Shown here: positions 7,845 through 43,149 of the stretch, piece by piece
Layout: every line of letters begins with the position of its first letter
How positions within the stretch are numbered: position 1 is the first letter of the stretch
Assembly (NCBI GenBank): GCA_963727815.1
Contig: CAVSGV010000006.1
Location: 28,541-92,540 of the forward strand
Source of the DNA: an uncultured bacterium
GTDB taxonomy: Bacteria > Margulisbacteria > WOR-1 > CAVSGV01
Length of the DNA: 64,000 nucleotides
Reading direction: 5' to 3'
Notes under the pieces: model-generated
The model's database searches: none
Told to the model about the DNA's origin: nothing
Seen by the model: only the letters and a program-made list of their open reading frames with translations
Position numbers and translations under genes: made by a program

Positions 7845-8029
7845 AACCTTTAATCTCCTCAATTATTTATCGTCACAAAGGAGAGGGAATTTCACTAATT
7901 GATAGATTATACCCATCCAGATCATAACAAGTCAACCATATTCAATTTAAGGTCGACATTAGCCATCAATGCATTAAATCCGTGTTTCTCTGCATTACAC
8001 GAGGACTAGCATTTACTTGATTGATAACA

Positions 8030-8726
8030 TTAGATTCTAAGGGTGGCTGTTCCTGAATCAGGATCTTCTGGATAAAAACGGTTTTTTTGACTTAATTGAA
8101 ATTGTTCCGCTTTTTTCTTTAACTTTTCGATTTCAGGTAAAGCCATTTCCTTGAACGATTTGTCCGAAGAAAATGAAGCAACATGTGTCGGGCCTCCAAC
8201 GCTTCTATCCTGTGAACTCGTTTCTTGTATACACAAAACACACATTTCCGCCCCAGCCTCTGTTTTTATATCTGACTTATAAAGACGATTGAGAAGGTAA
8301 TCTGCAATATATGGAACTCGAATAAAATGAAAGCCTGTGACGCCTTTTCTTGGAGACAAAATTATCCTCGCTTCGAAGAATATACATTTCTGGAGTACAA
8401 TCCAAAGTATACCCAATCAACAGCAATGAAAGGTTTGGCCTTTGACTTGGTTGCAAATGTTCATAAAAATCATTAAATTTAGCTTTCCCTTTAACCCTGA
8501 TTTGTTCTGCCAAATTTGAAATTCCTGTCAAATGATCTAAATCAGCTTTAATTTGATCGAGAAAATACATAGCAAGGCCTCCGTCTCCCGCAATGCCTAT
8601 CGCACTATGTTCACCAAGCTTGAAAACCTTTTGAATAGTATCATTGCTTGTTATAACAGAGCTTGCTCTACTATCGGAAGCGATTACAACTCCATCTTTA
8701 GCTTTCAGGCCAATAACTAGTGTCAT
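8030..8726 (-). CDS. proteasome beta-subunit/HslV-like Ntn hydrolase (frame break near 8350-8360 in this assembly)
   Basis: The N-terminus MTLVIGLKAKDGVVIASDSRAS places the Thr nucleophile right after Met, followed by GIAGDGG. The fold continues in the track ORF at 8030-8416 (GVTGFHFIRVPYIADYLLNRLYK...GGPTHVA) after a 1-nt shift. Confidence 0.65.
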
Positions 8727-8727
8727 T

Positions 8728-9084
8728 TTAGTTGAGGTTTACCTTTATATCCAGAGAGCTTTGTGGCTCAGTTTGATTGAATCGAGGGGCATATTGTTTA
8801 TACATCTGTTTTTCTATGGCTTTCCTCTTTTCTTCTCCTTTAATGCTGGCATATCGAAATGCAAAATTCCCATCTTGTTTAATAAAAATGCTCTCTGAGA
8901 GTTTTTTAGATAACTCATCCCCCAAGTCAGGACTGCTTCCAATAAAAACAACATAAAATTTGTCATCAGGTTCTTTCCTAGAAATACGATAAACCCCCTC
9001 GATCCCATTGAGTAAGGGTTTTATTGCATCATTTGTAAACGGGATAAGCTTAGACCATTGCAAAGTTAGATCGAGGTTTTCCAT
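8728..9084 (-). CDS. small GIY-YIG-like protein (divergent)
   Basis: GVYRIS...FYVVFIGSSPDLGDEL...EEKRKAIEKQMYKQYAPRFN follows the GIY...YIG...E...N spacing of GIY-YIG nucleases. Its stop lies 1 nt before the ATG of the proteasome-like gene. Confidence 0.4.
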   Translation of the reverse strand: MENLDLTLQWSKLIPFTNDAIKPLLNGIEGVYRISRKEPDDKFYVVFIGSSPDLGDELSKKLSESIFIKQDGNFAFRYASIKGEEKRKAIEKQMYKQYAPRFNQTEPQSSLDIKVNLN

Positions 9085-9138
9085 ACAGTTTATTTTTTAT
9101 CCTTTCCTATCATCGTTTTTCTTGGGATTTTAAGTACT

Positions 9139-9526
<388 letters not shown>

Positions 9527-9675
9527 CATGGGAAAAATACAGCGAGGAATATAAAGAATATGAGGAATTCAAGAAAAAACATAACGTGGGGCTCAATGAA
9601 TTATTCCCAAAGGGCCATATGCCCCCCGTTCAACCTAAAAAATACGGCTAGGCGTAGAAGCGGGCTCTTGAAGAG

Positions 9676-10677
9676 ATGAAAAATAAGCCACAAACTGAGA
9701 CAGGGAAATTGCTTTCAAGAATGTTTGATAACAAGTTTGATATAACAGACCTCAAAGAAGCACTCAAAATCAGCGATTGGATACTTCTCATGGATGAGGA
9801 CGAATATTCAGAGAGTTTCTTAGCAAAGAAAATCTTTAATTCAATCATTGATTACACATCATTTGAGGTTATGCCAGACAAGAAAACGGCAAAGACACTA
9901 CGCAATGATCTGGATGATTACTTGGAAAGCTTTATCAAAAATACGCTCAAAACGAGTTCCCGTGAAAGAAGAGTCAGCGAGATAATCGTCCTACAAAACC
10001 CCAATATCTACACATTTAATAAACACAAAGAAATGATCCTCGCACTGTTTCAAGATATGCGGGAAAATTATGGAGACACTTTTGTGTTTGAAAATCCTTT
10101 TGAGGGAATACCATTTGAAGCAGACAATAAAGAGAGTATACAGCAACGTTACGCCGCCAGACAGTTTCTTTTTATACATGCTATCCTTGCTTTTGAAAAA
10201 CTCGGATATATCAAAATTCTTGCACTCGGAAATAATTGGCATTGGGCAAACGCCAATGATGATAATCTTAAATATTATGCAAAAATTCAATTGCTCCCAT
10301 CTCTCTACCAAGGACAGAAGCATGAAATAGATGGCACAAATAAAACCGACAAGACAATCTGGTCATATAATCCATCGACAGGGATACTTTCGATTAACGG
10401 CAAAAACATCCAATTTAAGAAAAATAATTTTAGGGCTAAGGTTTTAGAGCTATTAACCAAAAACAGTAGAAACATGAATAAAAAATGGTCGTGGGATGAG
10501 ATTTACGAGGCAATCGAAAGGAAAAGAAGCGAAGAAAAGTTAGGGAAAGAAGAACAAGATAAAGTTTATTACGCTTGTGAAGGCATTACTGAATATATAG
10601 CAAATAAAAGTGGTGTAACCGGATTTATTATATTTGATAAGCAAACCGCACGAATAAACCCCGTATTACTGCCTTGA
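9676..10677 (+). CDS. hypothetical 333-aa island protein (possible C-terminal winged-helix)
   Basis: Long ORF with AT-rich codon usage matching the island. The C-terminal segment KKWSWDEIYEAIERK...VYYACEGITEYIANKSGVTGFIIFDKQTARINP looks like a DNA-binding wHTH. I recognise no family. Confidence 0.5.
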   Translation: MKNKPQTETGKLLSRMFDNKFDITDLKEALKISDWILLMDEDEYSESFLAKKIFNSIIDYTSFEVMPDKKTAKTLRNDLDDYLESFIKNTLKTSSRERRVSEIIVLQNPNIYTFNKHKEMILALFQDMRENYGDTFVFENPFEGIPFEADNKESIQQRYAARQFLFIHAILAFEKLGYIKILALGNNWHWANANDDNLKYYAKIQLLPSLYQGQKHEIDGTNKTDKTIWSYNPSTGILSINGKNIQFKKNNFRAKVLELLTKNSRNMNKKWSWDEIYEAIERKRSEEKLGKEEQDKVYYACEGITEYIANKSGVTGFIIFDKQTARINPVLLP

Positions 10678-10681
10678 TTTT

Positions 10682-10714
10682 GTAGGTCTACCGTAGGTCT
10701 ACTTAGGCCTACAC
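10682..10714. repeat. three tandem 11-bp units (iteron-like)
   Basis: GTAGGTCTACC / GTAGGTCTACT / TAGGCCTACAC, directly downstream of the 333-aa gene and about 420 bp upstream of the Rep remnant. Confidence 0.5.
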
Positions 10715-10871
10715 CTCATTTAGTAAGCTTAGCTTAATGTTAAACAGCGAAGCCGAACAATCATTTGAATACGATAAGGACATCAGCAATTTATCTCTTA
10801 CTGATGAAGAGATTAAAAGAGTTGCTGACCTCTTCGCTATTCTTGATCAAAGTTGATCAGAGAATAAAAAA

Positions 10872-11168
10872 ATGAAAACAAAGATAAGTGAAATACAAAT
10901 AACGCCGATTAAAGCTAAAGACGGATTGGTAGCTATAGCTAGTTTTGTCTATAACGGGGATTTTTATATGGGGTCAATCGGGATATACACAAGGCCACAA
11001 GCCGGATACCGATTGACCTACCCCACCCGTAAGACTGCTAACAATAGTTTTAACATTTTCCATCCGATCAACAAAACCATTGCGGAGGAAATTGAGAAAG
11101 CAGTAATCAGTAAATTTGAAGAGGTAATGAATCTGTATGATAGACACAATAGTATTAACACTGAGTAA
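10872..11168 (+). CDS. SpoVG-like DNA/RNA-binding protein
   Basis: Aligns by eye to SpoVG: KISEIQITPIKAKDGLVAIASFVYNGDF...YPTRKTANNSFNIFHPINKTIAEEIEKAV. Compare B. subtilis ...RAIASITLD...PSKRTPDGEFRDIAHPIN. Confidence 0.7.
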   Translation: MKTKISEIQITPIKAKDGLVAIASFVYNGDFYMGSIGIYTRPQAGYRLTYPTRKTANNSFNIFHPINKTIAEEIEKAVISKFEEVMNLYDRHNSINTE

Positions 11169-12306
11169 AGATATGTATCATATAACCGAACCGGATAAAT
11201 TTAAACCATCGGCACGCTGGATCAATACTGATACAGGCCGAATAGGGAAGCCGTGCCTATATAACATCTAAGCAAAACCCGACAAAAACTGAATTGCATA
11301 ACGGTATTTATAAGCCACGCCTTACTTTGACCAACCGTTTTAACCATACTGGAAGATATGAAGCATCATTGAAGATCGAGCTTTCTTTACCAAAACTTCT
11401 ATATGGAAATAACTTTGATGAATTAAAAGATTCTGATTTTGAAACGGTCTCAAACAAATTGCAAGAACGGCTAAAAGAAATGGGCGTTCATGTTTTCTAA
11501 GCAACTGCTTATCAAAGCTCCTGTTTCGGCGGTGCATTACTCAAAAAACATACCGCTTACAGACGGCTCGACCCCTTATCATTACATAAAGAAAATCAAA
11601 GAAGCTAATATCACTCAAGCTCTCGATACAAATCAAACAGATTTTCGCAATGATGGCCATAGCTTTAAGTGGCACTGCAATTCTTACGAAGTGGCATTCT
11701 ATGACAAGATCAAAGACCTTGAAGTATCAAAGAAAAGCGAAAAGCGGGCGATAGAAAAAGACAATGTTATGCAATTAGGGCTTTTTGATAAACTGAAAAA
11801 AAGAAGGCTATTTGAAGTTTTGAGGATGGAGGTTAGACTAAATAAACGGCAAAAAATAAGTCAGATATTCAAAAAGCTTGAGATAGGCAGTGAGATAACA
11901 TTTCAAAGTGTTTTTGACGCAAAAAAATCCCAAATAGTTTTATGCATTATCTTGTCGAGGTAGAAAAGCAAAGGCCAGCCCTATTAGACCGGACATATAA
12001 CGATCCCCAAGCATTTTGGCTGATATTGTTATAAGCAATCCAAATCTGAGAGCAAGACAAGCATTACAGGCTTTTGGATTAAAGCAGGCGTTTGATAAAA
12101 TTGGGATGCGGGAGCTAAGAAAGATACTTAACAGATTAAGTGATCGGTCTTGGTATCGTTTAGTTAAAACTATCAAGCAAGTAAAACTTGCGAAAAAGAA
12201 TGACACGTTCGGGGTTATCCGCAAACATCTATTATCTTTTGAATCCCTGAAGTTAGTTAATTTTCAAAATGTCATCGATAATAAAAGAAGCTTGAACAGC
12301 GTATGA
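11137..12306 (+). pseudogene. rolling-circle replication initiator remnant (phage/plasmid gene II/X-like), four frame breaks
   Basis: Pieces read MIDTIVLTLSKDMYHITEPDKF... (11137-11271), ...SKQNPTKTELHNGIYKPRLTLTNR...SLPKLLYGNNF (to 11500), ...EVLRMEVRLNKRQK (11490-11963), MHYLVEVEKQRPALLDR (third frame) and ADIVISNPNLRARQALQAFGL (12016-12306). The family assignment is from memory. Confidence 0.5.
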
Positions 12307-12517
12307 TTAGCAAGAAAAGGCATAATGCCACAGAACGCAGGGCAAACGAGGCTCATAGGGGCTATTATCAGGCATTACAGGTGTTTTTACGGGCTTTTGG
12401 GGATAAGGGACGCTAAGGATCGGAGAGCTTGCACAGCAAACGGGGTAAGATAGGAATGGAATTTTCAGATAAAAAGGGCTTGATAATGTCTGTAAACCAT
12501 TGTAAAGTATATAGCAT

Positions 12518-12694
12518 ATGAAAACACAAGAATATTATTTAGCACAAGAGCTGGCCGACAAACTAAGAGTAAACATTATGACGATTTACCGCTACATCAA
12601 AGCTGGGAAGCTTGTTGCACATAAAATTGGCAAAGAATTTCGTATAAGCAATAAAGAGTTTCAGTCATTTTTAACTAAGGCGAAAACAAAATAA
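12518..12694 (+). CDS. excisionase-family helix-turn-helix protein (58 aa)
   Basis: MKTQEYYLAQELADKLRVNIMTIYRYIKAGKLVAHKIGKEFRISNKEFQSFL matches the Xis/MerR-type HTH pattern (...TvYrwikeGklpa.kiGr.wRi). It is below the ORF-track size cut-off and ends 4 nt before the RM gene. Confidence 0.6.
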   Translation: MKTQEYYLAQELADKLRVNIMTIYRYIKAGKLVAHKIGKEFRISNKEFQSFLTKAKTK

Positions 12695-12698
12695 ATAT

Positions 12699-15600
12699 AT
12701 GGACATAAAAGAATTACAAACTAAATGGAACAAAGAAAAGGGATACTACAAAACAAAAGAAGTCGGAGATGGACTACAACACTTTATTCGTCAATTATTT
12801 GAATGCCCCGCCCTATTTAACTTAAAACAAGGAAGCGGAGTAACAAAACATACTAAAAGAAAAAACGAGTTCACCATTGAAACCCGCAAAAGAGATAAAG
12901 CTGGTCAAGCTGATTACATCATTTTTATTGATGGAATAAACATTGTAATTCCTGTTGAAGTTGAAAAATACGAAAACATTAAAGCTGGCGAAAAACAGTT
13001 ACTAAAATATCAATTAGCATGGGATAGAAAATATGGCATTTTGACCGATGGCTTTACTTGGCGTTTCTATAATAACACCTCTTATATAACATTCAATATT
13101 GATGATTTATTTTCAAACACTAAAATATTTCTTACTTTCTGGAAAGAATATATAAAGCCTGAAAATTATTACCTCTCCTTCTTTGAAGAACAAGGTCAAC
13201 TATCATTATTTCAGAAAAATAGCGTTAAAGTTGAACGAGATCGAGAGTTATTCTTTGAAGACATAACGAGGTTAATTGATAACTTTAAGAATAAACTGAA
13301 TTTAGCTGGGTATTTTAACAGTAAAGATAAAAAGGAAAATGATAAAAAAGCAACGGAAATTACTTATGCTTACTTCATTCAATTTATTTTATATAAAAAT
13401 CTTGTTGATAATTGCTACCATAGTTTTGAAGATGAATTCAAGCAAAGGATAGAAGCTATACATAGAAGCTTAAAAGCAGAGGTTTATGATGCTGTCCTTA
13501 CGAACATAAAGAGTATTTCTAAGTTTATTTCTGAGAAGCTTTACAAGCCTTTTAATAAGGAACAAGAGTTCATAAATATTCATCTTGAGGAAATATTAAA
13601 TAAACCGAAAACCGAATTGTCAGATATATCCTTATGGTTAGATATTATTGTTTTCATAAATAGATATGACTTCTCAAATATAAGCAAAGACATCTTTGGT
13701 TATATTTACGAAAACTACTTAAAAGACCTCTATGACGAAACGAATAAAGGACAATACTTTACTGACCCAGCCATAGTTGAATTTATGTTAGATGAAATTG
13801 GTTATACTGAAAGAACAATCCAAAACAAATATCAGCAAGGAAAACTAAAAGAACTCTCATTGATTGATCCGAGCTGTGGGAGTGGCACTTTCCTTTATTG
13901 TGCCACCAATAGACTTATAAATGCTTTGTGGGATGATAATACTGAAAAAAAATCAAAACTCGTTGAAGATGCAATAAATAATAATATATTTGGATTAGAT
14001 ATTGCTGAATTTCCTCTTTATCTGGCTGAAATGAATATTCTAATGCGAATGTTGCCTTTAATTGTTAACGAAAAATACAACAACCCCATAGATAAGAAAA
14101 TCAAAGTTTTTAAGACAAATGATAGTGTTTCAGAATTTTTAGACATTAGAGGACAAAATCTTCAAGGTGATTTGTTTAATCAAAAGCTTTTAGCCCTAGG
14201 GTATGCGAGTTACATTCGGAATGAAGACGATTTGAAAGATATGAAGACAAGCTTGATCCCGCCCAAAAAACGTTTTGATTATGTTATTGGTAATCCACCT
14301 TATATTGGCTATAACGAATGTTGTAAACAGAAAATCTTAATTTTTGAACTGATAAAACAAAGAAAAAGTATTATTAAATGATATTTATGGTGTTAATTTG
14401 CATAGTATTCCAAACAATCCCAAACGATATAGGCCAAATCCGAATCTTTATGCCTTTTTTGTAGCGTTAGGCTTAGAATTATTAAAAGATAATGCGGTTA
14501 TATGTTACATTATTCCTCAAACAATATTAACGTCTGGGGATTTTGATGTTTTACGTTATCATTTATCAAAAAAAACTACAATTAAAAAGATTATTACCTT
14601 TGAAGGTAAAATGTTTATTGGGAGAGGATTAAAACAAAAAAACCCTGTTGCAACATCGAGCTTGATCTTTGTTGTTAAAAAGTCTTCCGCAAATGAAAGC
14701 CATAAAGTTACTATCGTAAACTACAAAGACTATAATGAGCCGGAATTTGAAAAATATTTGAGGGGACGCAACAAAGAAACCAAAACTATATTGCAGGCTG
14801 AACTACTAAAGAATATTAAAAATTGGAACTTCATAAAACAAAATGATACCTTTATAAGAATGTATGACAGCTATCTTGAAACAACACAAGATATGTCAAA
14901 TTATTATGAACATGATAGTGCGAGGAAAACATACAATAGCACCTTCTATTTTGATGGCGGCTATAGCATTGATGAGAAGCAACTCTTAAATGCCCCAGAT
15001 TTTTATATCTATCCTAAAATAAATAACAACTATTATACGATAAGAGACGCAAGAGGGTTTTGGCCAAATATTAGGCAGGGAAATTCTAAGCATAGGATAG
15101 ATTTAAGACAAGGTAATCAAGAATATCATTTATTGGATAGTGAATATAAAATTATCTGGTCATACGCAAATATGCAAAGATTCTTTTTTACAGACAAACC
15201 TGTCATATGGGCGAGAAATCAATTTAATGCTATTGGCTCAAATAACAAGAGCGAACTTTTATATTTATTTTCTTTACTTAATTCGAGCTTAAACTTTTGC
15301 ATATTAAAAAGCATGTTAAAAAGTGAGAACGAGAAGGATTTTTTGATCGCAACTAATTCCGTGAAGCAATTCATTCGAGCCCCAATTATAAACCAAAACA
15401 ATCAAATAATTAAAGATGAGATTATAAAACAAACGGAGATTATGCTTAATTTGGAAACCTCTTCTATGTCAAATTATGTTGATTTTGGAAACATACAAAT
15501 GCAAAAGTTTGACAGGGTTGAATTCGACAACAAGAATCTTATCTTATATAAAGAAAATAATAGAATCTTAGCTAAAATTAAAAGCAATCCTGAGTTAATT

Positions 15601-15855
15601 AAGCAAATTATTGCCGATAAATATAGCGAAAAGAATTTGGCTGGCAATCCAATTATTTCATTAACAGAACTTAAATCAACCCCAGTTATTGATTGTAATG
15701 AACAGGAAAGTGTTAAAGATTATATTGATACACTTGTATTTGCTCTGTATTTCAATATTAAGCTTAGTAAAGTAGGATTTGAATATGCTAAACGAATCAA
15801 AACGAAATGTAAGGGAAACAAGTTTTATACTTATATTGAATCTGGAGAACAATGA
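12699..15855 (+). CDS. type IIG restriction-modification enzyme (nuclease + N6-adenine methyltransferase + specificity domain), frame break at 14356-14370
   Basis: N-terminal PD-(D/E)xK-like motif ADYIIF...IPVEVEK followed by GILTDGFTWRFY. Methyltransferase motif I is IDPSCGSGTFL and motif IV is GNPPYIG. The second ORF frame is open from 14356 (NKEKVLLNDIYGVNLHSIP), so removing one A from the AGAAAAAG run fuses both ORFs. Confidence 0.8.
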
Positions 15856-17360
15856 AAGCAATAATTGTCGCACGAGTATCCACTGAAGAGCAAAAGGAAG
15901 CTGGCAATTCCCTCCCCGCTCAAATTGCACGACTTAAAAAGCATTGTCAAGGCAAGGGGTTTGAGGTCGCAAAAGAATTCAGCTTCGACGAAAGTGCATA
16001 TAAAGAGCATCGAGATGACTTCGATAACATCCTTGATTATGTTATCAGCCAAAAGGAAAAAATAGTTGTTTGTTTTGACAAGGTAGATCGGCTGTCCCGA
16101 AACATCTTTGATAAACGAGTATCCCTGCTCTACGAAAAAGCGTTAAAAGACGAGATTGAACTTCACTTTGTATCAGATGGACAGGTTATCAATAGCCAGC
16201 TTTCCGCAGTGGAAAAGTTCAATTTCAGCATGAGTCTTGGGCTTGCTAAATATTATTCGGATGCCATAAGCGACAACGTTAAAAGGGCACAGGAACAAAT
16301 CCTAAGAAGCGGTAGATACCCCCACTCGCTCCCTTATGGATATAAAAAAATCATACGAGATGATGGTAAAAGTAATTATGTAATTGATGAATATGCCTCC
16401 CGAATAGTCCAGAAAGTTTTTGAATGGTATGCAACCGGAGCATTTTCAATGAATTTGATCCTTGATAAGCTGATAAAAGAATATGGGATCAAATGGTCAA
16501 AGAGCTTTTTGGATAAAGTCCTTAAAAATACTTTCTATTATGGGCTTATGGTATGGAAGGGTAAGACATGTAAACATGGGTATCCGACCATCATTACCTA
16601 TGCCCTGTTTGAACAAGCACAACAAGTAAAAGCTGGCCATAATAAAAAGAAATTCAAATATGCTGGGCTTCCGTATATTTATCGAGGCCTTATTCGATGC
16701 AACCATTGCGGGCTTGCTATTACTCCTGAAAAACACAAAGGGCATGTTTATTACCATTGCACAGAATATAACGGCAAACACGATGCCAAGTGGCTTAAAG
16801 AAGAAGCTATAACCGAACAACTTAGCCAAGTATTCAAAAAACTACGCTTACCGGATCATGTCATGGATAAAGTTATTAACACACTCAAAAATGTCCATGA
16901 GGATAAAAATCAATTTAGGGATAAGCAATATGAGGAATTATCAAAAGAACATCAACTCTATACAGCCAGAAGCGACAAATTGTATGTCGACAAACTCGAT
17001 GGGCGTATTACTGACGTTGCCTATGACAGATATTATCAATCCTTCAGGGATAAGATAGCCGAAATGGATGCAAGATTAGCCTTACTTCAAGATGCCGAAG
17101 ATAATTACTATATCACTGTGAAATACTTGCTAGACATAGCTAAAAGAGCTAATGATCTATTTGTCTGTTCGGAAGTTGAAGAAAAAAGGCAAATTATCAA
17201 GTTAATACTTCCGAACCTTAGGATGGATGGCAATACTTTGCGATATGAAGCACAAAAACCGTTTGATTCTCTACTCGCTTATGCGGATAGTAAAGGAAAG
17301 CTCAGCTCAAGGTTCACGTCCTGGATCGTCCTGTTCGCGTTCACGACGTCAAAATTATAA
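15852..17360 (+). CDS. large serine recombinase (integrase)
   Basis: The resolvase-type N-terminus AIIVARVSTEEQ carries the catalytic Ser. A recombinase domain, a zinc ribbon CNHCGLAITPEKHKGHVYYHC and a C-terminal coiled-coil region follow. Its last 20 codons run across the right junction into host DNA. Confidence 0.9.
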   Translation: MKAIIVARVSTEEQKEAGNSLPAQIARLKKHCQGKGFEVAKEFSFDESAYKEHRDDFDNILDYVISQKEKIVVCFDKVDRLSRNIFDKRVSLLYEKALKDEIELHFVSDGQVINSQLSAVEKFNFSMSLGLAKYYSDAISDNVKRAQEQILRSGRYPHSLPYGYKKIIRDDGKSNYVIDEYASRIVQKVFEWYATGAFSMNLILDKLIKEYGIKWSKSFLDKVLKNTFYYGLMVWKGKTCKHGYPTIITYALFEQAQQVKAGHNKKKFKYAGLPYIYRGLIRCNHCGLAITPEKHKGHVYYHCTEYNGKHDAKWLKEEAITEQLSQVFKKLRLPDHVMDKVINTLKNVHEDKNQFRDKQYEELSKEHQLYTARSDKLYVDKLDGRITDVAYDRYYQSFRDKIAEMDARLALLQDAEDNYYITVKYLLDIAKRANDLFVCSEVEEKRQIIKLILPNLRMDGNTLRYEAQKPFDSLLAYADSKGKLSSRFTSWIVLFAFTTSKL

Positions 17361-17956
17361 TCCCTGCAAATGTTGACGAACTCTTTTTTGACCTTGTTCT
17401 GGTATTTGATCATGCTGTCGAACCAGTCCCTTGAAAATCCCATGTCCATTCCAGACTCCCAATAGTCAAGCGCGGGGTGGGAACTCAGCGTGCGGTCTAC
17501 GAGCGTTTTCATCGAAAGATCCAGGAAGAACACCGCATCGGGAACGAGTGCCATTTGATACAGCGACTTTACCCATTCGCCTTCCGCTCCCCTGACGATG
17601 TCGCGTATCATCAGAGTGAAAATATATCGATCGGCCAGGACGACGCACCCGGCGTTCAAAGCAGGCATGATGTTGTTTTCAAGCTGGTCGTAAAAATCGG
17701 TCGCGTAGAACAGCGACATGGTCCGAGGACTCAGCACGTTGCCATTCTTCGCCGTCTCAAGCTCCTCGCTGACCAGGAGGGACCTTTTTAATCCCGCGCT
17801 TACCACGGCATAGCCTTTCTGTTCCAGCCAGGGGATGAGGTTCGCGATGTGCGTGGACCTTCCGGAAGAATCCATGCCCTCGATGACTATAAGCGCTCCC
17901 TGCAGCTTTTTCGGCTCAACTCCCGCCGGCGGCTTGCCGAAGAATTTGTTGCTCAT
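17279..17956 (-). CDS. thymidylate-kinase-like P-loop protein 2 (Walker A Lys replaced by Arg); 3' end replaced by island DNA
   Basis: VIEGMDSSGRST P-loop and a LADRYIFT DRY-type motif. The tail ...LELSFPLLSA is encoded by island sequence from 17300 downward. ATGA overlap with the upstream paralog. Confidence 0.7.
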   Translation of the reverse strand: MSNKFFGKPPAGVEPKKLQGALIVIEGMDSSGRSTHIANLIPWLEQKGYAVVSAGLKRSLLVSEELETAKNGNVLSPRTMSLFYATDFYDQLENNIMPALNAGCVVLADRYIFTLMIRDIVRGAEGEWVKSLYQMALVPDAVFFLDLSMKTLVDRTLSSHPALDYWESGMDMGFSRDWFDSMIKYQNKVKKEFVNICRDYNFDVVNANRTIQDVNLELSFPLLSA

Positions 17957-31526: not shown

Positions 31527-34184
31527 TCATCCTTTATTGAATTCAGTCGGCTTTCCTGCAATATAAAGCAATGCGTCATAGGAATCCCCCGTTTTCTCCC
31601 GTTCTCTTCTTATCATAATATCCATTGTTATCGCGCCAAGCACCAATCCGCTGCCTATAAATATGGATGGAATTAAGCCGAATCTGAGCGAGAAATTCGC
31701 ACCATATAACATGATGCCAATGCCCGGGCCGATGACAAGGAATTTGAGCATTTCATTTCTCAGCCATACAATGGTAGTTTCTCTATCCCTTCTCATCCTA
31801 TGTGCCAACTCTATATAAGATGATTCTAAAGGAGAGAGCCCCTTCTTATCCTGGTATGCATATATTTTTTCCAATACAGCTTGCAAATTATGGTATTTCC
31901 CCGAAAGACCCAGGGCTCGTTTTGCTCTAAAGGAAAGCTGCGTCTCGTATTGCGAAAATCTGCTCCATCCTGCCATTTTAGGGTGATAAAAATTATGTAC
32001 CGGTATTGAAGTGATATCTCTCTTTGATATCATGAGAGGGATGGTCTTATCGCCAATAGTCACCGAGTTATTAATGACAAGCTTTCCCATATCGTTAGAA
32101 AGCGTGTTATTAACGAAACCTATTAGTTGTTTATAATCCATCCCTTCAGTATGTTCGAACACTGTAGCTTCTTTCCCGTGCATAATGATGGATGGGTTCA
32201 CAAGCAGCCTTTTTAACTCGACCGAACCTATTTTCGCTCCTTCAACGTAGGTCAATTTTTGGGTCATTCCCCGGAGGAGCAATCTTCCGGCAAACGTATC
32301 TTCAACGGGTATGCCAAAATATGCGTTAAGCATTCTTACGCCTTCAAGATAATTATCCGATAAATAAAATCCATTCAATCCGAGATCGACCCTTGAGAGG
32401 CCAAGAGAAGTTCTTTCGTCGTATAACCATCTCCTTAAAGTATGCGGGGGCGCGGTCACTGGATTTGTGCTGCCTACAAGGCGTTCCTTCATCTTATTGA
32501 GGGGCATAGCATTTTCTCCCTCTTTAATTATCTGTATAACAACGACCTTGCCGCCTCTTTTTGTCAGGTATTCGAACAGTTCAGGCGCGAAACCATCAAG
32601 TATGTACAGATCTCTGCCTTTATAACGGACTTTTTTAACATAGATCTCCCTTGCGAGTTCAACGATTTCACCTTCACCCGAATACCAGTATATATTCAGG
32701 TCCTGGTATGGAATATCTTCTTTTTCCATGAACTGGAAACCTCCGAGAATATTATCTTTAACCCTGTCGACAGACACGCCATAGTGGTTCTTGAACCTCT
32801 CTTTCGCCTGAGCTGAAAGCGCCGCGACTCCTCTTTTTGCCACATCTTTAATGACGCCATATTGATTTTCCGTTATTTGATTTGAAGAAATATACGGTCC
32901 GGAAAGAACCGATATTGCCGCGGCATTCCAGCCATTAGCTCTTAATAAAAACAGAGTTTTCCTTATTATTTCACCCTTCTTTGACTCCTTTTCAAAAAGT
33001 TCGGGTTTTAAGATAATTACAGCTTCATGGTCGTTCATTGTCACTGTTCTGATGTAATATGTCTCATCCAATTCGAGTACATCGCTCCTATCGCCATCCG
33101 TGATATCGTTAACTTCATAAGTTATTCTGTCGGATAATATATTGATATCATTTAGATCGTTCGTTCTGCGGAATATCGTTGAGAAGACCCTTGAATTTTC
33201 CTCTCCCCATTCAATGTCCATGGGTTGCGTCATCATGCTTGCGGGATCCAGGGTCTCCCTTCCTTGTGATATCCTTATGAGCTTGTTCGTCCCGGCCATG
33301 GCATTGATTCCGAGACAAGCTTCCATTACTTTAAAAAATTCATTAATATTTGATGTTGTGTCCTGGATCTCTTTATCCTTCTTAGCCGTCGAACTAGATC
33401 TCTTGCTCATCTCCATATTTACGATCTTGCTCTTGATCTCTTCAATAAGGGTTTTGTTGGGCTTGACCACCAATGCGACAGCCGTAAGGCAATTGGGGTC
33501 TTCCATCATCAAAAGAGGATAACAATCCTTGATAGCATGGATGTTCTGCGCAATAAAGAACAGCGACTGGAGATTCTTATAAAGATCCTGGGATTTTAAT
33601 TGTTTGATCACATCTACGCCGAGCACGGACGGATTTCCAAGAGCCTTACCCGTTTTGATTATTGCATTCAATCCATCTTCAAGCCCCAGTTTTCTTATTA
33701 TCGCAAAATAAAAAATAAGCTCGAGTTCGGACGGGTAGAAACCTTTTTTTTCATAATCACACAGATCATCAAATTGTGCGGTGGTTATGCCGATATCGTA
33801 GAGGACCGTCGCCAGGATTTCTCTAGTAAGGACGGCTTTGATCGCCCTGAAAACCGCGGGAGAAGTTCCGGCTTTGTTCGTAGTGTACTCATCTATCAAT
33901 CTCATTGGCCGAATGGTATCCGTCAGATCCCCCCAGAATTTATCATCGACCAATTGGCGCAGTTTGTTTTGGTCAAAATTATTGAGGATATGTCCGGCAT
34001 CCACATCTGTAAAGCTATGCATAGCTGCGACGGGCTTTGTTTTTTCCTCTTTAAGATATGTTTGAACGGCAACGCGCATTTTTTGAATGACATCATCTAT
34101 CGCTGCTCTATCGAACCTGCCAAAAGAAGTGACTTTTATGCCGCCTCTGATATTGAAAGTGTTTATTTCGAAAGGTCCCGCCAT
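31527..34184 (-). CDS. 885-aa membrane-anchored protein with a nucleoside-diphosphate-kinase-like domain (catalytic His replaced by Tyr)
   Basis: EAVIILKPELF...VVVIQIIKEGENAMPLNKMKERLVGSTNPVTAPPHTLRRWLY...LNGFYLSDNYLEGVRMLNAYFG aligns by eye with NDK ...IVVSVLEGENAV...[20 protein letters not shown]...[21 protein letters not shown]. C-terminal hydrophobic helices are present. It is a paralog of the ORF at 40799-42001. Confidence 0.6.
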   Translation of the reverse strand: MAGPFEINTFNIRGGIKVTSFGRFDRAAIDDVIQKMRVAVQTYLKEEKTKPVAAMHSFTDVDAGHILNNFDQNKLRQLVDDKFWGDLTDTIRPMRLIDEYTTNKAGTSPAVFRAIKAVLTREILATVLYDIGITTAQFDDLCDYEKKGFYPSELELIFYFAIIRKLGLEDGLNAIIKTGKALGNPSVLGVDVIKQLKSQDLYKNLQSLFFIAQNIHAIKDCYPLLMMEDPNCLTAVALVVKPNKTLIEEIKSKIVNMEMSKRSSSTAKKDKEIQDTTSNINEFFKVMEACLGINAMAGTNKLIRISQGRETLDPASMMTQPMDIEWGEENSRVFSTIFRRTNDLNDINILSDRITYEVNDITDGDRSDVLELDETYYIRTVTMNDHEAVIILKPELFEKESKKGEIIRKTLFLLRANGWNAAAISVLSGPYISSNQITENQYGVIKDVAKRGVAALSAQAKERFKNHYGVSVDRVKDNILGGFQFMEKEDIPYQDLNIYWYSGEGEIVELAREIYVKKVRYKGRDLYILDGFAPELFEYLTKRGGKVVVIQIIKEGENAMPLNKMKERLVGSTNPVTAPPHTLRRWLYDERTSLGLSRVDLGLNGFYLSDNYLEGVRMLNAYFGIPVEDTFAGRLLLRGMTQKLTYVEGAKIGSVELKRLLVNPSIIMHGKEATVFEHTEGMDYKQLIGFVNNTLSNDMGKLVINNSVTIGDKTIPLMISKRDITSIPVHNFYHPKMAGWSRFSQYETQLSFRAKRALGLSGKYHNLQAVLEKIYAYQDKKGLSPLESSYIELAHRMRRDRETTIVWLRNEMLKFLVIGPGIGIMLYGANFSLRFGLIPSIFIGSGLVLGAITMDIMIRREREKTGDSYDALLYIAGKPTEFNKG

Positions 34185-40477: not shown

Positions 40478-40789
40478 ATGAGAAAACTTATTTCAATTTT
40501 CTTCCTTCCGTTGTTGCTTTCGTTAAGCCTGTCGATCCCTGCCGCTTTTGCGCAAAACAAGGACATCATGAACGATCCCATCATAAAACAGGACAAAATG
40601 CAGACTCAGATCGACAAGGCCCTGTTTCAAAAAGACATGCGTATGGTGTGGAAGGATCTGCTAAAGGTGCAAAAAGACACGGATAAATTAAGGCTGGACA
40701 TGCTAAAAGCCAGAAAAGCGATGATCCTGTCCCAAAAAAAGAAAGCCGCGGAAAAAACAAAACAGCAGAAAGCCGTTCCGGCCACATAG
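40478..40789 (+). CDS. small secreted Lys/Gln-rich coiled-coil protein
   Basis: MRKLISIFFLPLLLSLSLSIPAAFA is a signal peptide. ATG at 40478 lies after an AAAAAGGGGTG RBS-like stretch. Confidence 0.45.
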   Translation: MRKLISIFFLPLLLSLSLSIPAAFAQNKDIMNDPIIKQDKMQTQIDKALFQKDMRMVWKDLLKVQKDTDKLRLDMLKARKAMILSQKKKAAEKTKQQKAVPAT

Positions 40790-40798
40790 CCGATCAAT

Positions 40799-42001
40799 TC
40801 AGTTCAGCTGGCTTTTGATCGCTTTGGCGAAAATAATGATGACTTCTTCGGCAGACATCTCTTCCGTGTGATCAAAGACCGACTTGATATTGCCGTTCCA
40901 TTTCACCAGCGGGTTTGCCATGAGCTTCCGTATCTCCGCCGGCGAATACTGGGCGCGCTGCATCAGGAGCCTCCCGATAGAGGTCTCTTCCGGCTTTGTC
41001 CCGAAAAAGTTCTCGCACTCATATAAGAATTCGATCGGGCCGGCCGAAAAATGATATCCGTTCTGGTTCTTGTCCACTTCCAGAACGCCGTACTGCTCCA
41101 TGTTCTTGAACAGGTCGTTCCTTATGCCGCTCCCATCCCTGGGATTGGTCGGTCCGATGACCACACCCCTCATCTTTTTAAGGGACGCGGCCTGCCCGCT
41201 TCCTCTTCTCACCCGCAATACTACGACCCTGTCCTGGGGCCTGGTATAGCTGATCATCTGGGCCGGGGTGAACCCGTTCAAAATGAACACTGTACGCTCA
41301 TCCACATCGCAAGCCCTCACGGGAACAAATCCGCCGTCCTCATATTTTACCGGCGCGACATAAGTGCCTGGAGCTAGTTTTATGTTATATTTCTTCCTGT
41401 CGTTTTTTTCCTTGCTGAGATCATCAAGCTCAAGCGACCGCTTCCACAGAGCGTCAAGCTGTTCAACGCTCAAACCCGCCTGTTCCATGAACTGGAAGCC
41501 GCCAAAAGCAATGGGACCTTCCGGCGACTTAGAATCCATTTCCCGCCCCATCAATTCGCGGAAATACTTTTTTGCGTCCTGGGACACAACAGACACGTCG
41601 TTCTTTGCAATGTTCGCGGTAACGCCGTAGTGTTTTAGCATGGTCTCATTTTCTCTTAGATGGTCGCCGGACATGACCGACGCGTTAAGTATTTCCCAGC
41701 CATTGCTGACGACCGCCATGAGCCCGAGCGCGATCGTATCTTTTATCCTTGCACCTTTCGCCAGCGCGGCGGACTTAACGAACAAGATCGCCTCATCATG
41801 GAACAACTTTGGGTTCACATTCGCGATGGCGGTCGAGGGCGTAAGGATCTCCATATTCAGCACAGGTTTGCATACCCAGCTTGCCGCCGTATTGATCAAT
41901 TTCAAATAACTGACGGATGAGGGATCTGACGCCTCAAGTAATTTCACGCCCATCACCTTAACATTCGTTAAGAACGCTGACACATTTTCAAATCTGATCA
42001 T
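40799..42001 (-). CDS. 400-aa nucleoside-diphosphate-kinase-like protein (catalytic His retained)
   Basis: DRVVVLRVRRGSGQAASLKKMRGVVIGPTNPRDGSGIRNDLF...NGYHFSAGPIEFLYECENFFG aligns with NDK LEGENAV...GATNP...GTLRADYA...[21 protein letters not shown]. It shares the insert GGFQFME with the 885-aa protein. Confidence 0.6.
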   Translation of the reverse strand: MIRFENVSAFLTNVKVMGVKLLEASDPSSVSYLKLINTAASWVCKPVLNMEILTPSTAIANVNPKLFHDEAILFVKSAALAKGARIKDTIALGLMAVVSNGWEILNASVMSGDHLRENETMLKHYGVTANIAKNDVSVVSQDAKKYFRELMGREMDSKSPEGPIAFGGFQFMEQAGLSVEQLDALWKRSLELDDLSKEKNDRKKYNIKLAPGTYVAPVKYEDGGFVPVRACDVDERTVFILNGFTPAQMISYTRPQDRVVVLRVRRGSGQAASLKKMRGVVIGPTNPRDGSGIRNDLFKNMEQYGVLEVDKNQNGYHFSAGPIEFLYECENFFGTKPEETSIGRLLMQRAQYSPAEIRKLMANPLVKWNGNIKSVFDHTEEMSAEEVIIIFAKAIKSQLN

Positions 42002-42027
42002 TTAAATTCTCCTTATCTTTTAATGGG

Positions 42028-43074
42028 TCAGATGACAGGCGCGCCCTGCTTAAAAAGAAGCGCCGGCACCGTCCTGAGCAGTATTCCCAACTCCATTCCC
42101 CAGCTCCAATTCTCTATGTAATGGCGCTCCAGTTTGAATTTGGTTATCCTGTTCTCAACTACATCCGGATCGTCGCGGCCGTTTATCATCCTTAATCCGG
42201 TCAGGCCTGGTTTCGCCGTATAAACCCTCATGAACTCATCCACCGGCATGCTCTTATCTTGAACGATCATATCCGGAAGAATATTCTCGGCCCTCGGACC
42301 GATAAGCGACCACTCGCCTGTCATGACATTCAATAACTGCGGCAGTTCGTCAATGCCGTATTCTCTTATGAACTTGCCCACCGGACGGATTATCCTTGGA
42401 TCTTTCACGTTCGCCGGAATATAAGTATCGGGCCCCTTCAGAAAATACATGGACCTTATCTTGTGATATGTGACCACTTTCCCGTTCTGGCCGGGTCTTT
42501 TGCCCGAGAAGAAAGGCGATCCCGGGGAATAACACATTACAGCAAGCCCTTCCAGGAACATTACCGCCAGCGACGGAACGGCCATTACTAATGAAAGCCC
42601 GATGTCTTCAGTTCTCTTCAGAAAGACGTTCTTCGAAGTGAACAAGCGCGAATTTTCGGGAACGAACTTTTCTCTCGGAGAATAGACCAGTTTTACGGGT
42701 TTAGAGCGGTAAACGACTTTTTCTGGTCTGTTCTCGTTTAAGATGATCTGTAGTTCAGAAAGTGTGTTCGATACGGGCAGGCCGACTTTGATATTAATTT
42801 CACCGTTCTTATCCGCGGTTGCCCAAGCTATGATAGTATCTCGAGTTCCTTTAACTTCGATGCGGTAGAAAATGCGAGGCTTTAAATTGTTCATCTTCAA
42901 GTTCATTTGGAGCGTTTTAACATCATTGAACACATTGATCACGTTGACCCCGGCGCTGCGGATGTCTTCGTGATTTGAAATGAACATCCTTGCCTGAGGA
43001 GCACATGAGGCAAAAAGCCCCATTCCCTTCAGGAAGCCGGCATCCTTAAGTATATAAACAAAATTCGCGCTCAT
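42028..43074 (-). CDS. polyprenyl-phosphate sugar-phosphate transferase (bacterial sugar transferase family) with extra N-terminal domain
   Basis: The C-terminal half SPFFSGKRPGQNGKVVTYHKIRSM...DPRIIRPVGKFIREYGIDELPQLLNVMTGEWSLIGPRA is the WbaP/EpsL-type catalytic core. Confidence 0.8.
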   Translation of the reverse strand: MSANFVYILKDAGFLKGMGLFASCAPQARMFISNHEDIRSAGVNVINVFNDVKTLQMNLKMNNLKPRIFYRIEVKGTRDTIIAWATADKNGEINIKVGLPVSNTLSELQIILNENRPEKVVYRSKPVKLVYSPREKFVPENSRLFTSKNVFLKRTEDIGLSLVMAVPSLAVMFLEGLAVMCYSPGSPFFSGKRPGQNGKVVTYHKIRSMYFLKGPDTYIPANVKDPRIIRPVGKFIREYGIDELPQLLNVMTGEWSLIGPRAENILPDMIVQDKSMPVDEFMRVYTAKPGLTGLRMINGRDDPDVVENRITKFKLERHYIENWSWGMELGILLRTVPALLFKQGAPVI

Positions 43075-43149
43075 ATATTTATTTATCGAAGAAATTAGGC
43101 GGTAATTTCAAATATTAAAGACATATAAAATGATGTAAAATACGCCTGA

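What the first reader, a model, noticed from the sequence alone, without database searches (positions are those of the whole stretch)
40799..42001. 400-aa protein with a divergent NDK-like fold next to a sugar-phosphate transferase
By eye, the C-terminal half aligns with nucleoside diphosphate kinase, including GPTNP (NDK GATNP), IRNDL (LRADY) and NGYHFSAGPIEFLYECENFFG ([21 protein letters not shown]). The phospho-His position is retained. The protein is about 2.7 times the size of NDK, has an about 100-aa insert containing GGFQFME, and lacks the SD of the HGSD motif. It is convergent with nothing obvious. It sits 27 nt upstream of a polyprenyl-phosphate sugar transferase that has an unusual N-terminal domain, which suggests a role in supplying or sensing nucleotide(-sugar)s for envelope glycan synthesis.
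Basis: partly seen in the sequence, partly recalled or inferred. Interest (0 to 1): 0.6.

Follow-up and report, generated by a model that had tools for sequence, protein, structure and literature searches.

The report
Long-form NDK-fold phosphotransferase, unstudied family
This 400-residue protein of an uncultivated Saganbacteria/Margulisbacteria genome really is a relative of nucleoside diphosphate kinase that keeps the whole catalytic site but carries a 110-residue insertion and two extensions, and it belongs to a widespread family (many bacterial phyla, plus tandem-repeat versions in dinoflagellates and euglenids) for which I found no experimental study.

Summary
ORF 40799-42001 (-) encodes a 400-aa protein with no Pfam, NCBIfam or PDB sequence hit of its own. 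A profile of 96 homologues hits only NDKs in the PDB (E 9.8e-9). hhalign against NDKs gives 98% probability. An AlphaFold model (pLDDT 91) matches only NDK structures (TM 0.64-0.74 on the NDK).

Every NDK active-site residue has a conserved equivalent: K76, Y125, F244, R278, T285, R294, N314, H317 (96/96), S319 and E328. The NDK core is residues 70-126 plus 237-335. It is split by a 110-aa insertion in the helix hairpin that covers the nucleotide, and flanked by N- and C-terminal extensions.

The family is large (546 clusters at 50% identity). It is mostly labelled "hypothetical protein", has no model of its own, and coexists with canonical ndk in all 12 genomes of this phylum that carry it.

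It is most likely an active His-phosphoenzyme NDP-to-NTP kinase with a specialised role. The link to the adjacent sugar-phosphate transferase looks like an operon, but it was seen nowhere else. Three other contexts place family members beside P-loop (NMP-)kinase-like genes, and one of them also beside a UDP-glucose pyrophosphorylase/GT5 gene.

This is a new variant of a known kind, of moderate interest.

The parts
40799..42001 (-). Whole ORF, 400 aa plus TGA stop: long-form NDK-fold protein
   Evidence: ORF list. The family search found 546 representatives at E<=1e-3. AlphaFold model pLDDT 91.3.
41795..42001 (-). N-terminal extension, residues 1-69. A small alpha/beta unit, lower confidence at residues 1-30.
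   Evidence: Secondary structure and pLDDT of the model. Coordinates checked.
41624..41794 (-). First half of the NDK core, residues 70-126 (beta1-alpha1-beta2-helix A). K76 is the equivalent of NDK K12 (motif KSA here, KPE in the family). H124-Y125 is the equivalent of NDK H51-Y52.
   Evidence: Motif table and residue counts. A weak, individually non-significant HMM stretch aligns the family's flfflKPE with the TLLILKPD of 1xqi. Foldseek alignments span the whole NDK chain.
41294..41623 (-). Family-specific insertion, residues 127-236 (helices plus a beta-hairpin), with conserved motifs LGGxxF (GGFQFME here) and KLAxGTY. It replaces the short loop between helix A and helix 2 of NDK, the hairpin that covers the nucleotide base.
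   Evidence: Alignment A1 consensus, motif table, model secondary structure.
40997..41293 (-). Second half of the NDK core, residues 237-335: helix 2 (F244), beta3, alpha3 (R278), enlarged Kpn loop (T285, R294), beta4 (N314, H317, S319), alpha4 (E328).
   Evidence: hhalign 98%, E 2.4e-13 over residues 251-335. HMM alignment to 1xqi and 4di6. Conservation counts.
41051..41053 (-). Codon of His317, the predicted phospho-accepting histidine
   Evidence: Invariant in 96/96 members. Aligned with the catalytic His of NDKs. Codon checked.
40802..40996 (-). C-terminal extension, residues 336-400, conserved across the family (GxLL, NP, FDxTE motifs)
   Evidence: A1 consensus and near-invariant N363, F376, T379, E380. 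Model helices and hairpin.
42002..42027 (-). 26-nt spacer between the transferase stop and the ATG, with an AAGGAG ribosome-binding site 7 nt before the start
   Evidence: Sequence read directly.
42028..43074 (-). Upstream gene of the putative operon: a 348-aa polyprenyl-phosphate sugar-1-phosphate transferase (Bac_transf domain at residues 153-340) with an unassigned N-terminal extension of about 140 aa
   Evidence: Pfam PF02397 E 4.2e-38. NCBIfam EPS_sugtrans and WcaJ models match the C-terminal domain only, below their full-length cut-offs.
43111..43139 (-). Sigma-70-like promoter match upstream of the transferase gene (consensus match only)
   Evidence: The number of such sites in the region is not above the shuffle expectation.
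40758..40780 (-). Terminator-like hairpin plus T-run, 19 nt after the stop codon (consensus match only)
31527..34184 (-). Paralogue in the same window: an 885-aa protein whose residues ~385-690 are the same long-form NDK-like domain (GGFQFME at 481), with the catalytic His replaced by Tyr607 and the partner Glu by Met. It also has an unassigned 380-aa N-terminal region and a hydrophobic C-terminal tail.
   Evidence: tblastn match E 1.1e-26. Profile match E 1.3e-66. Alignment A5. Residue positions.

Best explanation
The gene encodes an active histidine-phosphoenzyme phosphotransferase of the nucleoside diphosphate kinase type. An NTP donates its gamma-phosphate to His317, which is held by Glu328 and Ser319. 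The phosphate then passes to a nucleoside diphosphate bound by K76, Y125, N314 (ribose) and R278, T285, R294 (phosphates), with the base against F244.

The 110-residue insertion sits in the helix hairpin that normally leaves the base exposed. Together with the conserved C-terminal extension, it most likely acts as a lid or partner surface that narrows substrate choice or changes oligomerisation. The protein would then serve a specialised nucleotide pool beside the housekeeping Ndk.

In this genome it is probably co-transcribed with a polyprenyl-phosphate sugar-phosphate transferase. There it could regenerate the NTP needed to remake the nucleotide-sugar donor.

Shown: homology, fold, conservation of the catalytic constellation, family distribution, coexistence with canonical ndk.
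Inferred: enzymatic activity, nucleotide substrates, lid role of the insertion, coupling to glycan synthesis.
For: Homology and fold:
- The profile of 96 homologues hits only NDKs in the PDB, best E 9.8e-9.
- hhalign gives 98%, E 2.4e-13.
- The AlphaFold model has pLDDT 91.3 and pTM 0.89.
- All meaningful Foldseek hits are NDKs, with TM 0.64-0.74 normalised to the NDK.

Active site:
- Equivalents of all NDK residues that bind or act on the nucleotide are near-invariant in the family and all present in the query: K76 95/96, Y125 92/96, F244 94/96, R278 90/96, T285 91/96, R294 96/96, N314 94/96, H317 96/96, S319 93/96, E328 95/96.
- The roles of the NDK residues are taken from PMC7461546. Those of S120 and F60 are from my own knowledge.
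- Such conservation over 546 clusters at 50% identity argues for catalysis.

Specialised role:
- All 12 genomes of this phylum that carry the family also carry a canonical ndk, so the role is additional.

Context hints at nucleotide chemistry:
- An AAA_17 protein immediately upstream and a GT5+UDPGP fusion two genes downstream.
- An adenylate/shikimate-kinase-like P-loop gene next door in a B. thuringiensis plasmid cluster.
- In a related Parageobacillus plasmid cluster, an 'AAA family ATPase' upstream beyond an IS256, a SurE nucleotidase gene immediately downstream and a NUDIX hydrolase gene two genes downstream.

Operon signals with the transferase.
Against: - No biochemical datum exists for any member, as far as five literature searches show.
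- Keeping every catalytic residue does not guarantee activity. Human NME6 keeps them all but was reported phosphotransfer-inactive, possibly because of a 3-residue Kpn-loop insertion (PMC8597243). This family also has an enlarged Kpn loop.
- The query is an atypical member: KSA instead of KPE, W274L, and a 2-3-residue deletion just before R294.
- The insertion lies exactly at the nucleotide-binding hairpin and could occlude the site.
- The transferase pairing is not conserved.
- Most chromosomal members have no nucleotide-related neighbour.
- Assignment of K76, Y125 and F244 rests on motifs, a weak HMM stretch and the predicted structure, not on a significant sequence alignment.
Confidence: 0.6

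Rival explanations
1. It is a His-phosphoenzyme that passes the phosphate to a non-nucleotide or non-standard acceptor. Candidates are a modified nucleotide or nucleoside-antibiotic intermediate, a sugar or polyol phosphate, a lipid phosphate, or a protein (protein histidine kinase). The insertion and the C-terminal extension would form the acceptor site.
For: - The insertion is large, carries conserved motifs and sits at the substrate entrance.
- The family coexists with an ordinary ndk, so a different substrate would explain why both are kept.
- The Bacillaceae plasmid clusters look like small-molecule biosynthesis. The B. thuringiensis one holds MetK, myo-inositol-1-phosphate synthase, an APH-type kinase, SDRs, and PHP and HAD phosphatases. 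The Parageobacillus one holds MetK, myo-inositol-1-phosphate synthase, SurE and NUDIX.
- Group I NMEs are known protein histidine kinases (PMC7461546).
Against: - The residues that bind ribose hydroxyls and the base-stacking Phe are conserved, which argues that at least one substrate is an ordinary nucleotide.
- Most chromosomal members stand alone with no biosynthetic neighbours.
Confidence: 0.2
2. It is a catalytically silent nucleotide-binding or scaffold protein, like NME6 as reported or NDK5. It would act through binding (sensing) rather than phosphotransfer.
For: - NME6 keeps all catalytic residues yet was found phosphotransfer-inactive and monomeric (PMC8597243).
- The Kpn loop is enlarged and the query deviates at the KPE motif.
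- The in-window paralogue has clearly lost His and Glu, which shows that the fold can be reused non-catalytically.
Against: - The His, its Glu and Ser partners and all phosphate ligands are invariant or near-invariant across 96 diverse members. This is hard to explain without catalysis.
- The dead paralogue shows what relaxation of that constraint looks like.
Confidence: 0.12
3. In this genome it is the working housekeeping NDP kinase, because the canonical ndk is a pseudogene.
For: The only canonical ndk (G000:C6:523214-523642) reads through one TGA and one TAA. About 25 codons lie in another frame between two compensating frameshifts.
Against: - The shifted segment still encodes a perfect NDK consensus (IVTVIEGENAVAKIREMMGP), and the second shift lies in a GGGG run. 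This is typical of assembly indels.
- Relatives keep both genes.
Confidence: 0.08

Closest known systems
Canonical nucleoside diphosphate kinase (Ndk/NME group I; Pfam PF00334; EC 2.7.4.6; e.g. E. coli 2hur, human NME2 8pyw)
   Same: Same ferredoxin-like fold with helix hairpin and Kpn loop (Foldseek TM 0.7 on the NDK). Same catalytic His with Glu and Ser partners. Same Lys/Tyr/Asn and Arg/Thr/Arg ligands and base-stacking Phe.
   Different: - 400 aa against about 140-155 aa.
- A 110-aa insertion between helix A and helix 2.
- 69-aa N-terminal and 65-aa C-terminal extensions.
- An enlarged Kpn loop.
- The query scores nothing against PF00334.
- It coexists with a true ndk.
- Activity and oligomeric state are unknown.
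Insertion-bearing NDKs with solved structures (1xqi, 195 aa, which I recall as Pyrobaculum aerophilum NDK; 4di6/4dz6, 190 aa)
   Same: They are the best PDB sequence matches of the family profile (E 9.8e-9 and 2.2e-7). They share the longer Kpn-loop segment between the GTIR motif and the N-x-x-H motif.
   Different: They lack the 110-aa hairpin insertion and the C-terminal extension, and they are still recognised by PF00334-type models.
Group II NME proteins (NME6, NME7, flagellar NDK5)
   Same: Divergent NDK domains with extra segments. They show that the fold can be embedded in larger proteins and can be catalytically silent (PMC8597243; PMC7461546). NME7-type chains of doublet microtubules appear among the Foldseek hits (7ung_5, 9e2g_0R).
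   Different: Their extra parts are DM10, Dpy-30 or second NDK domains, not this insertion. TM-scores over the full chain are low (0.15-0.30). Many group II members lack some catalytic residues, whereas this family keeps them all.
Unnamed long-form NDK-like family (e.g. Oceaniferula marina WP_178932449.1 / UniRef A0A851GED9; Ca. Saganbacteria MCX5748646.1; Verrucomicrobia MBU0679076.1, auto-named 'nucleoside-diphosphate kinase')
   Same: The query is a member: phmmer E 1e-13 to 5e-75 to 150 representatives. It shares the motifs HYG, LGGxxF, KLAxGTY, LNGF, G-x-T-x-P...R, NGxHxSAGP, NP and FDxTE.
   Different: The query and three close relatives (P0002, P0005, P0279, the full-length member of the P0009 cluster) form a divergent subgroup with GPTNP..G--GIRN and HFSAG. 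The query itself reads KSA where the family has KPE (KPG and KPS in its two full-length relatives). The query also has two private extra segments in the insertion.

Membership tests
Nucleoside diphosphate kinase superfamily (NDK fold) | Ferredoxin-like alpha/beta sandwich with the helix A/helix 2 hairpin and the Kpn loop | tested here: met
   The AlphaFold model has pLDDT 91.3. All Foldseek PDB hits with probability >=0.9 are NDKs or NDK-domain chains, with TM 0.64-0.74 normalised to the NDK over 267-283 columns.
Nucleoside diphosphate kinase superfamily (NDK fold) | Statistically significant sequence homology to NDKs | tested here: met
   Family profile against PDB: only NDKs, E 9.8e-9. hhalign 98%, E 2.4e-13. 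The same profile retrieves the canonical ndk genes of relatives at E 1e-9 to 1e-5.
Canonical Ndk (Pfam PF00334 / NCBIfam PRK00668, EC 2.7.4.6) | Score above the curated model cut-off | tested here: not met
   The query has no PF00334 or NCBIfam hit even at E<=1. Typical family members reach 20-26 bits against a 155-bit NCBIfam cut-off. 50/96 members hit PF00334 at E<=0.01, and a few just pass 27 bits.
Canonical Ndk (Pfam PF00334 / NCBIfam PRK00668, EC 2.7.4.6) | Catalytic His plus Glu/Ser partners, and the Lys, Tyr, Asn, Arg, Thr, Arg nucleotide ligands | tested here: met
   H317 96/96, E328 95/96, S319 93/96, K76 95/96, Y125 92/96, N314 94/96, R278 90/96, T285 91/96, R294 96/96. All are present in the query. 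The mapping of the C-terminal residues comes from significant alignments. The mapping of K76, Y125 and F244 comes from motifs and the model.
Canonical Ndk (Pfam PF00334 / NCBIfam PRK00668, EC 2.7.4.6) | Compact single domain of about 135-180 residues | tested here: not met
   400 aa, with a 110-aa insertion and two extensions.
Canonical Ndk (Pfam PF00334 / NCBIfam PRK00668, EC 2.7.4.6) | NTP:NDP phosphotransfer through a phospho-His intermediate; hexamer or tetramer | not testable with these tools
   Needs purified protein.
Long-form NDK-like family (unnamed) | Full-length homology and the family motifs in the insertion and the C-terminal extension | tested here: met
   phmmer over residues ~65-399 to many 330-360-aa proteins. 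The motif table shows deviations at KPE->KSA, W274L and the shortened GS-R segment.
Polyprenyl-phosphate glycosyl-1-phosphate transferase (Bac_transf, PF02397), for the neighbouring gene | Bac_transf catalytic domain above the gathering score | tested here: met
   131 bits against a cut-off of 27, residues 153-340. The sugar specificity was not determined.
Conserved NDK-like + sugar-transferase module | The gene pair recurs in other genomes | tested here: not met
   Absent beside the closest relatives. Absent in five relatives of the same class. No such transferase cluster appears among the recurrent neighbours of about 77 further loci; those neighbours were clustered by BLAST, not scanned with Pfam.

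The most novel reading that the evidence does not exclude
The long-form family is a separate, ancient branch of the NDK superfamily, and its insertion creates a closed, selective acceptor site. Its physiological job would then not be bulk NDP-to-NTP conversion. It would be the last phosphorylation step for particular nucleotides or nucleotide-like intermediates (nucleotide-sugar recycling, modified nucleotides, nucleoside natural products). It would often work downstream of a dedicated P-loop NMP kinase. The same enzyme was amplified as tandem-repeat polyproteins in dinoflagellates and euglenids.
Probability: 0.25. Interest if true: 0.7.

Novelty: new variant of a known kind. Interest (0 to 1): 0.5.

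Why it matters
NDK is among the best-studied phosphotransfer enzymes and is usually treated as a single compact, base-unspecific housekeeping protein.

A second, much larger form would be an overlooked piece of nucleotide metabolism if active. It keeps the whole active site and has a conserved insertion over the nucleotide pocket. It is kept alongside the ordinary enzyme in all 12 genomes of this phylum that carry it, is found in many other bacterial phyla, and occurs as multi-copy polyproteins in some protists. It would also be a natural experiment in how substrate selectivity can be grafted onto the NDK fold.

The practical consequences are these:
- The family deserves its own profile model, since it is now mostly annotated as hypothetical protein.
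- One biochemical characterisation would annotate hundreds of sequence clusters.

For this particular gene, the pairing with a phosphoglycosyl transferase offers a concrete, testable hypothesis of local NTP regeneration for glycan synthesis.

Tried and rejected
- Single-sequence AlphaFold gave a useless model (pLDDT 37). Only the alignment-based run was used.
- The word-index search found only the protein itself.
- The search for related loci failed with alignments A1 and A2 because no stretch was conserved enough. It found nothing with the single protein. It worked only with a tight subgroup alignment, A3, so the 263 loci are biased towards the main clade.
- The phage collection and the viral fold library gave nothing.
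- Domain fusions in longer family members gave no functional clue. They showed only NDK, an EF-hand pair on one eukaryotic repeat protein and a sub-threshold LGFP repeat.
- Neighbour clustering over about 77 loci found only lineage-restricted synteny. In PVC bacteria this is a gene I read by eye as rsmB-like, overlapping the family gene. In Bacteroidales it is a 124-aa protein I read by eye as DUF1987/SiaC-like, plus an aldo-keto-reductase-like gene. I therefore rejected a universal operon partner.
- I rejected 'replacement of a missing ndk' as the general role, because all 12 family-bearing genomes of the phylum also have ndk.
- Five literature searches found no description of the family.
Neither expression nor the ndk frameshifts could be checked in reads.
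- Coordinates of the model are not available to scripts. Whether the insertion really caps the nucleotide pocket could not be measured.
Full report
**The gene.** Window 40799-42001 (minus strand) is a clean 400-codon ORF. It starts 26 nt after the stop codon of a 348-aa gene and is preceded by AAGGAG 7 nt before the ATG. A promoter-like site lies upstream of the 348-aa gene and a terminator-like hairpin lies 19 nt after the 400-aa ORF. Both are consensus matches only. The two genes therefore look like one transcription unit. The upstream gene carries a Bac_transf phosphoglycosyl-transferase domain (PF02397, E 4.2e-38, residues 153-340) behind an unassigned extension of about 140 residues.

**Is the NDK resemblance real?** Alone, the protein hits nothing in Pfam, NCBIfam or the PDB sequences, and the word-index search returned only itself. 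An exhaustive phmmer search found 546 representatives (50% clusters) at E<=1e-3 and 220 at E<=1e-10. Most are 330-360 aa.

An alignment of 96 of them (A1) has G283, R294 and H317 invariant. The evidence from that alignment is as follows:
- Its profile, searched against all PDB sequences, returned NDKs only (all 60 rows shown), best 1xqi at E 9.8e-9.
- 50 of the 96 members hit Pfam NDK at E<=0.01, and no other family recurs.
- Profile-profile comparison with canonical NDKs taken from relatives' genomes gave 98% probability, E 2.4e-13, over residues 251-335.
- AlphaFold with A1 gave a confident model (pLDDT 91.3, pTM 0.89). The single-sequence run was useless.
- Foldseek against the PDB returned NDKs throughout. 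The whole NDK chain was covered (267-283 alignment columns, that is, bridging the insertion), with TM 0.64-0.74 normalised to the NDK.

**Anatomy.** This comes from the model's secondary structure and the motif table.

| Residues | Part |
|---|---|
| 1-69 | N-terminal extension |
| 70-126 | beta1-alpha1-beta2-helix A of NDK (LFVKS..., ...KHYG) |
| 127-236 | Family-specific insertion of helices and a beta-hairpin, with conserved LGGxxF (GGFQFME) and KLAxGTY motifs |
| 237-335 | Helix 2, beta3, alpha3, a lengthened Kpn loop, beta4 and alpha4 |
| 336-400 | Conserved C-terminal extension (GxLL, NP, FDxTE) |

Equivalents of the NDK active-site residues are all present in the query and near-invariant in the family:

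| Query residue | NDK equivalent | Conserved in 96 members |
|---|---|---|
| K76 | K12 | 95 |
| Y125 | Y52 | 92 |
| F244 | F60 | 94 |
| R278 | R88 | 90 |
| T285 | T94 | 91 |
| R294 | R105 | 96 |
| N314 | N115 | 94 |
| H317 | H118 | 96 |
| S319 | S120 | 93 |
| E328 | E129 | 95 |

The roles of the NDK residues are taken from PMC7461546; those of S120 and F60 are from my own knowledge.

The query is an atypical member. It has KSA instead of KPE, L instead of the usual W274, and GPTNPRDGS--GIRN with a 2-3-residue deletion. The shortened segment is shared by three close relatives (P0002, P0005, P0279), whose full-length members read KPG and KPS at the first motif.

**Distribution.** A motif-anchored scan of one genome per species found 263 loci. 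They come from Bacteroidota, Verrucomicrobiota, Kiritimatiellota, Planctomycetota, Acidobacteriota, Chloroflexota, several Proteobacteria and Sericytochromatia, and include cultured strains (Pseudoflavitalea, Bernardetia, Kiritimatiellota B12222).

Long multi-copy versions are eukaryotic: Prorocentrum cordatum CAK0870700.1 and Jenningsia fusiforme. A 2306-aa protein has eight repeats and a C-terminal EF-hand pair.

Source names are 'hypothetical protein' or, occasionally, 'nucleoside-diphosphate kinase'. No Pfam or NCBIfam model covers the family.

Relatives in the same class are labelled Candidatus Saganbacteria and Margulisiibacteriota. This agrees with earlier notes on this genome.

Within that phylum only 12 of 146 genomes carry a full-length member. 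All 12 also carry a canonical ndk. The family is therefore not a substitute for Ndk in general.

**Context.** No partner is universal.
- Most chromosomal members stand alone.
- PVC bacteria have a gene that I read by eye as an rsmB-like methyltransferase overlapping the family gene.
- Bacteroidales share local synteny with a 124-aa protein that I read by eye as DUF1987/SiaC-like, and with an aldo-keto-reductase-like gene.
- Three Saganbacteria relatives have a gene that I read by eye as bioB-like downstream.
- The transferase pairing of the window was seen nowhere else, not even beside the closest relatives.

Three contexts do point to nucleotide chemistry:
- In the locus of P0279 the order is AAA_17 protein, family member, unknown protein, GT5+UDP-glucose-pyrophosphorylase fusion, giant protein, all on one strand.
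- On B. thuringiensis plasmid pST7-2 the gene lies in a cluster with MetK, myo-inositol-1-phosphate synthase, SDRs, an APH-type kinase, and PHP and HAD phosphatases. A small adenylate/shikimate-kinase-like P-loop protein is immediately adjacent.
- On a Parageobacillus plasmid it lies in a cluster with MetK and myo-inositol-1-phosphate synthase. An 'AAA family ATPase' lies upstream beyond an IS256, SurE immediately downstream and a NUDIX hydrolase two genes downstream.

An NMP-kinase-like gene next to an NDK-like gene suggests consecutive phosphorylations, XMP to XDP to XTP.

**Mechanism proposed.** I consider an active ping-pong phosphotransferase most likely (0.6). An NTP phosphorylates His317, and the phosphate goes to a bound NDP. 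The insertion and C-terminal extension would narrow specificity or provide a partner surface. In this operon the enzyme could regenerate the NTP needed to rebuild the nucleotide-sugar that the transferase consumes.

Only homology, fold, residue conservation and distribution are shown. Activity, substrates and coupling are inferred.

The main caveat is NME6. It keeps every catalytic residue yet was reported phosphotransfer-inactive, perhaps because of a Kpn-loop insertion (PMC8597243). This family also has a longer Kpn loop, and an insertion at the nucleotide hairpin.

Rivals:
- Transfer to a non-standard acceptor (0.2).
- A silent binding protein (0.12).
- Stand-in for a broken ndk in this genome (0.08).

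**The canonical ndk.** It exists at G000:C6:523214-523642, outside the window. In the assembly, about 25 codons lie in another frame between two compensating frameshifts, which gives in-frame TGA and TAA. The shifted stretch still reads a perfect NDK consensus and the second shift is in a GGGG run. I think assembly indels are the likelier cause.

**Paralogue.** The window holds a second copy of the long-form domain inside an 885-aa protein (31527-34184, minus). It has an unassigned 380-aa N-terminal region and a hydrophobic C-terminal tail. There the His is Tyr607, the partner Glu is Met, the R278-equivalent is Lys and HY is QY. An 881-aa orthologue from a metagenome shows the same His->Tyr change. 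It looks like a pseudo-enzyme derivative, and it illustrates what loss of catalytic constraint looks like in this fold.

**Earlier notes of this scan (leads only).** Other agents described an 'expanded NDK-fold kinase, conserved uncharacterised family' of 346 aa, a long-form NDK in a mobile nucleotide-modification cassette, and NDK-kinase-HD fusions in glycan clusters. Sequence look-ups did not link them to my protein, so I cannot say they are the same family. They agree with the reading reached here independently.

**Verdict.**
- The protein is a divergent member of a widespread, unstudied long-form branch of the NDK superfamily, that is, a new variant of a known kind.
- Interest is moderate (0.5).

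Noticed in passing
window 31527-34184 (-): 885-aa paralogue with the same long-form NDK-like domain (residues ~385-690). The catalytic His is replaced by Tyr607 and its partner Glu by Met. It also has an unassigned 380-aa N-terminal region and a hydrophobic C-terminal tail. An 881-aa metagenomic orthologue (P0014) shares the His->Tyr change. It is probably a membrane-anchored pseudo-enzyme.
   Followed up: partly
own genome G000:C6:523214-523642 (locus L001 1501-1929), outside the window: The canonical ndk has two compensating frameshifts about 75 nt apart, giving in-frame TGA and TAA. The shifted segment still encodes a perfect NDK consensus, and the second shift is in a GGGG run. This is probably an assembly indel pair, but a recent pseudogene is not excluded.
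   Followed up: partly
window ~8000-17400: A low-GC island (30-36% GC against about 50%). It holds an MmeI/Eco57I-type restriction-modification gene split into two adjacent ORFs (12699-14381 and 14398-15855) and a large serine recombinase (15852-17360). A PIN-domain ORF lies at 6928-7614. It looks like an integrated mobile element.
   Followed up: partly
window 42028-43074 (-): The phosphoglycosyl transferase has an N-terminal extension of about 140 residues with no Pfam match, ahead of the membrane hairpin and the Bac_transf domain.
   Followed up: no
proteins P0003, P0004, P0006, P0007, P0008, P0011, P0047: Eukaryotic proteins of 650-2800 aa made of 2-8 tandem copies of the long-form domain. 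They come from the dinoflagellate Prorocentrum cordatum, the euglenid Jenningsia fusiforme and marine metagenomes. One ends in an EF-hand pair. They look like polyproteins or repeat enzymes.
   Followed up: partly
L123 (B. thuringiensis plasmid pST7-2, CP016196.1 34219-49112) and L124 (Parageobacillus caldoxylosilyticus plasmid NZ_CP040554.1 9928-24815): Two related plasmid clusters around a family member. Both hold MetK, myo-inositol-1-phosphate synthase, SDR-type dehydrogenase(s) and a small P-loop kinase/ATPase gene. The B. thuringiensis one also has an APH-type kinase and PHP and HAD phosphatases. The Parageobacillus one also has SurE and a NUDIX hydrolase. The product is unknown. I found no paper on them.
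   Followed up: partly
L011, L012, L014, L015, L019, L020, L027 (Kiritimatiellia and Verrucomicrobia): The family gene's stop overlaps by 4 nt the start of a ~423-aa gene that I read by eye, without a Pfam scan, as an RsmB/Sun-like SAM methyltransferase. This is a conserved two-gene unit in PVC bacteria.
   Followed up: no
L120 3915-13119: A same-strand array in a metagenomic contig: a 650-aa AAA_17 protein, the family member (P0279), a 626-aa unknown protein, a 787-aa GT5 + UDP-glucose pyrophosphorylase fusion, and the start of a 2132-aa protein.
   Followed up: no
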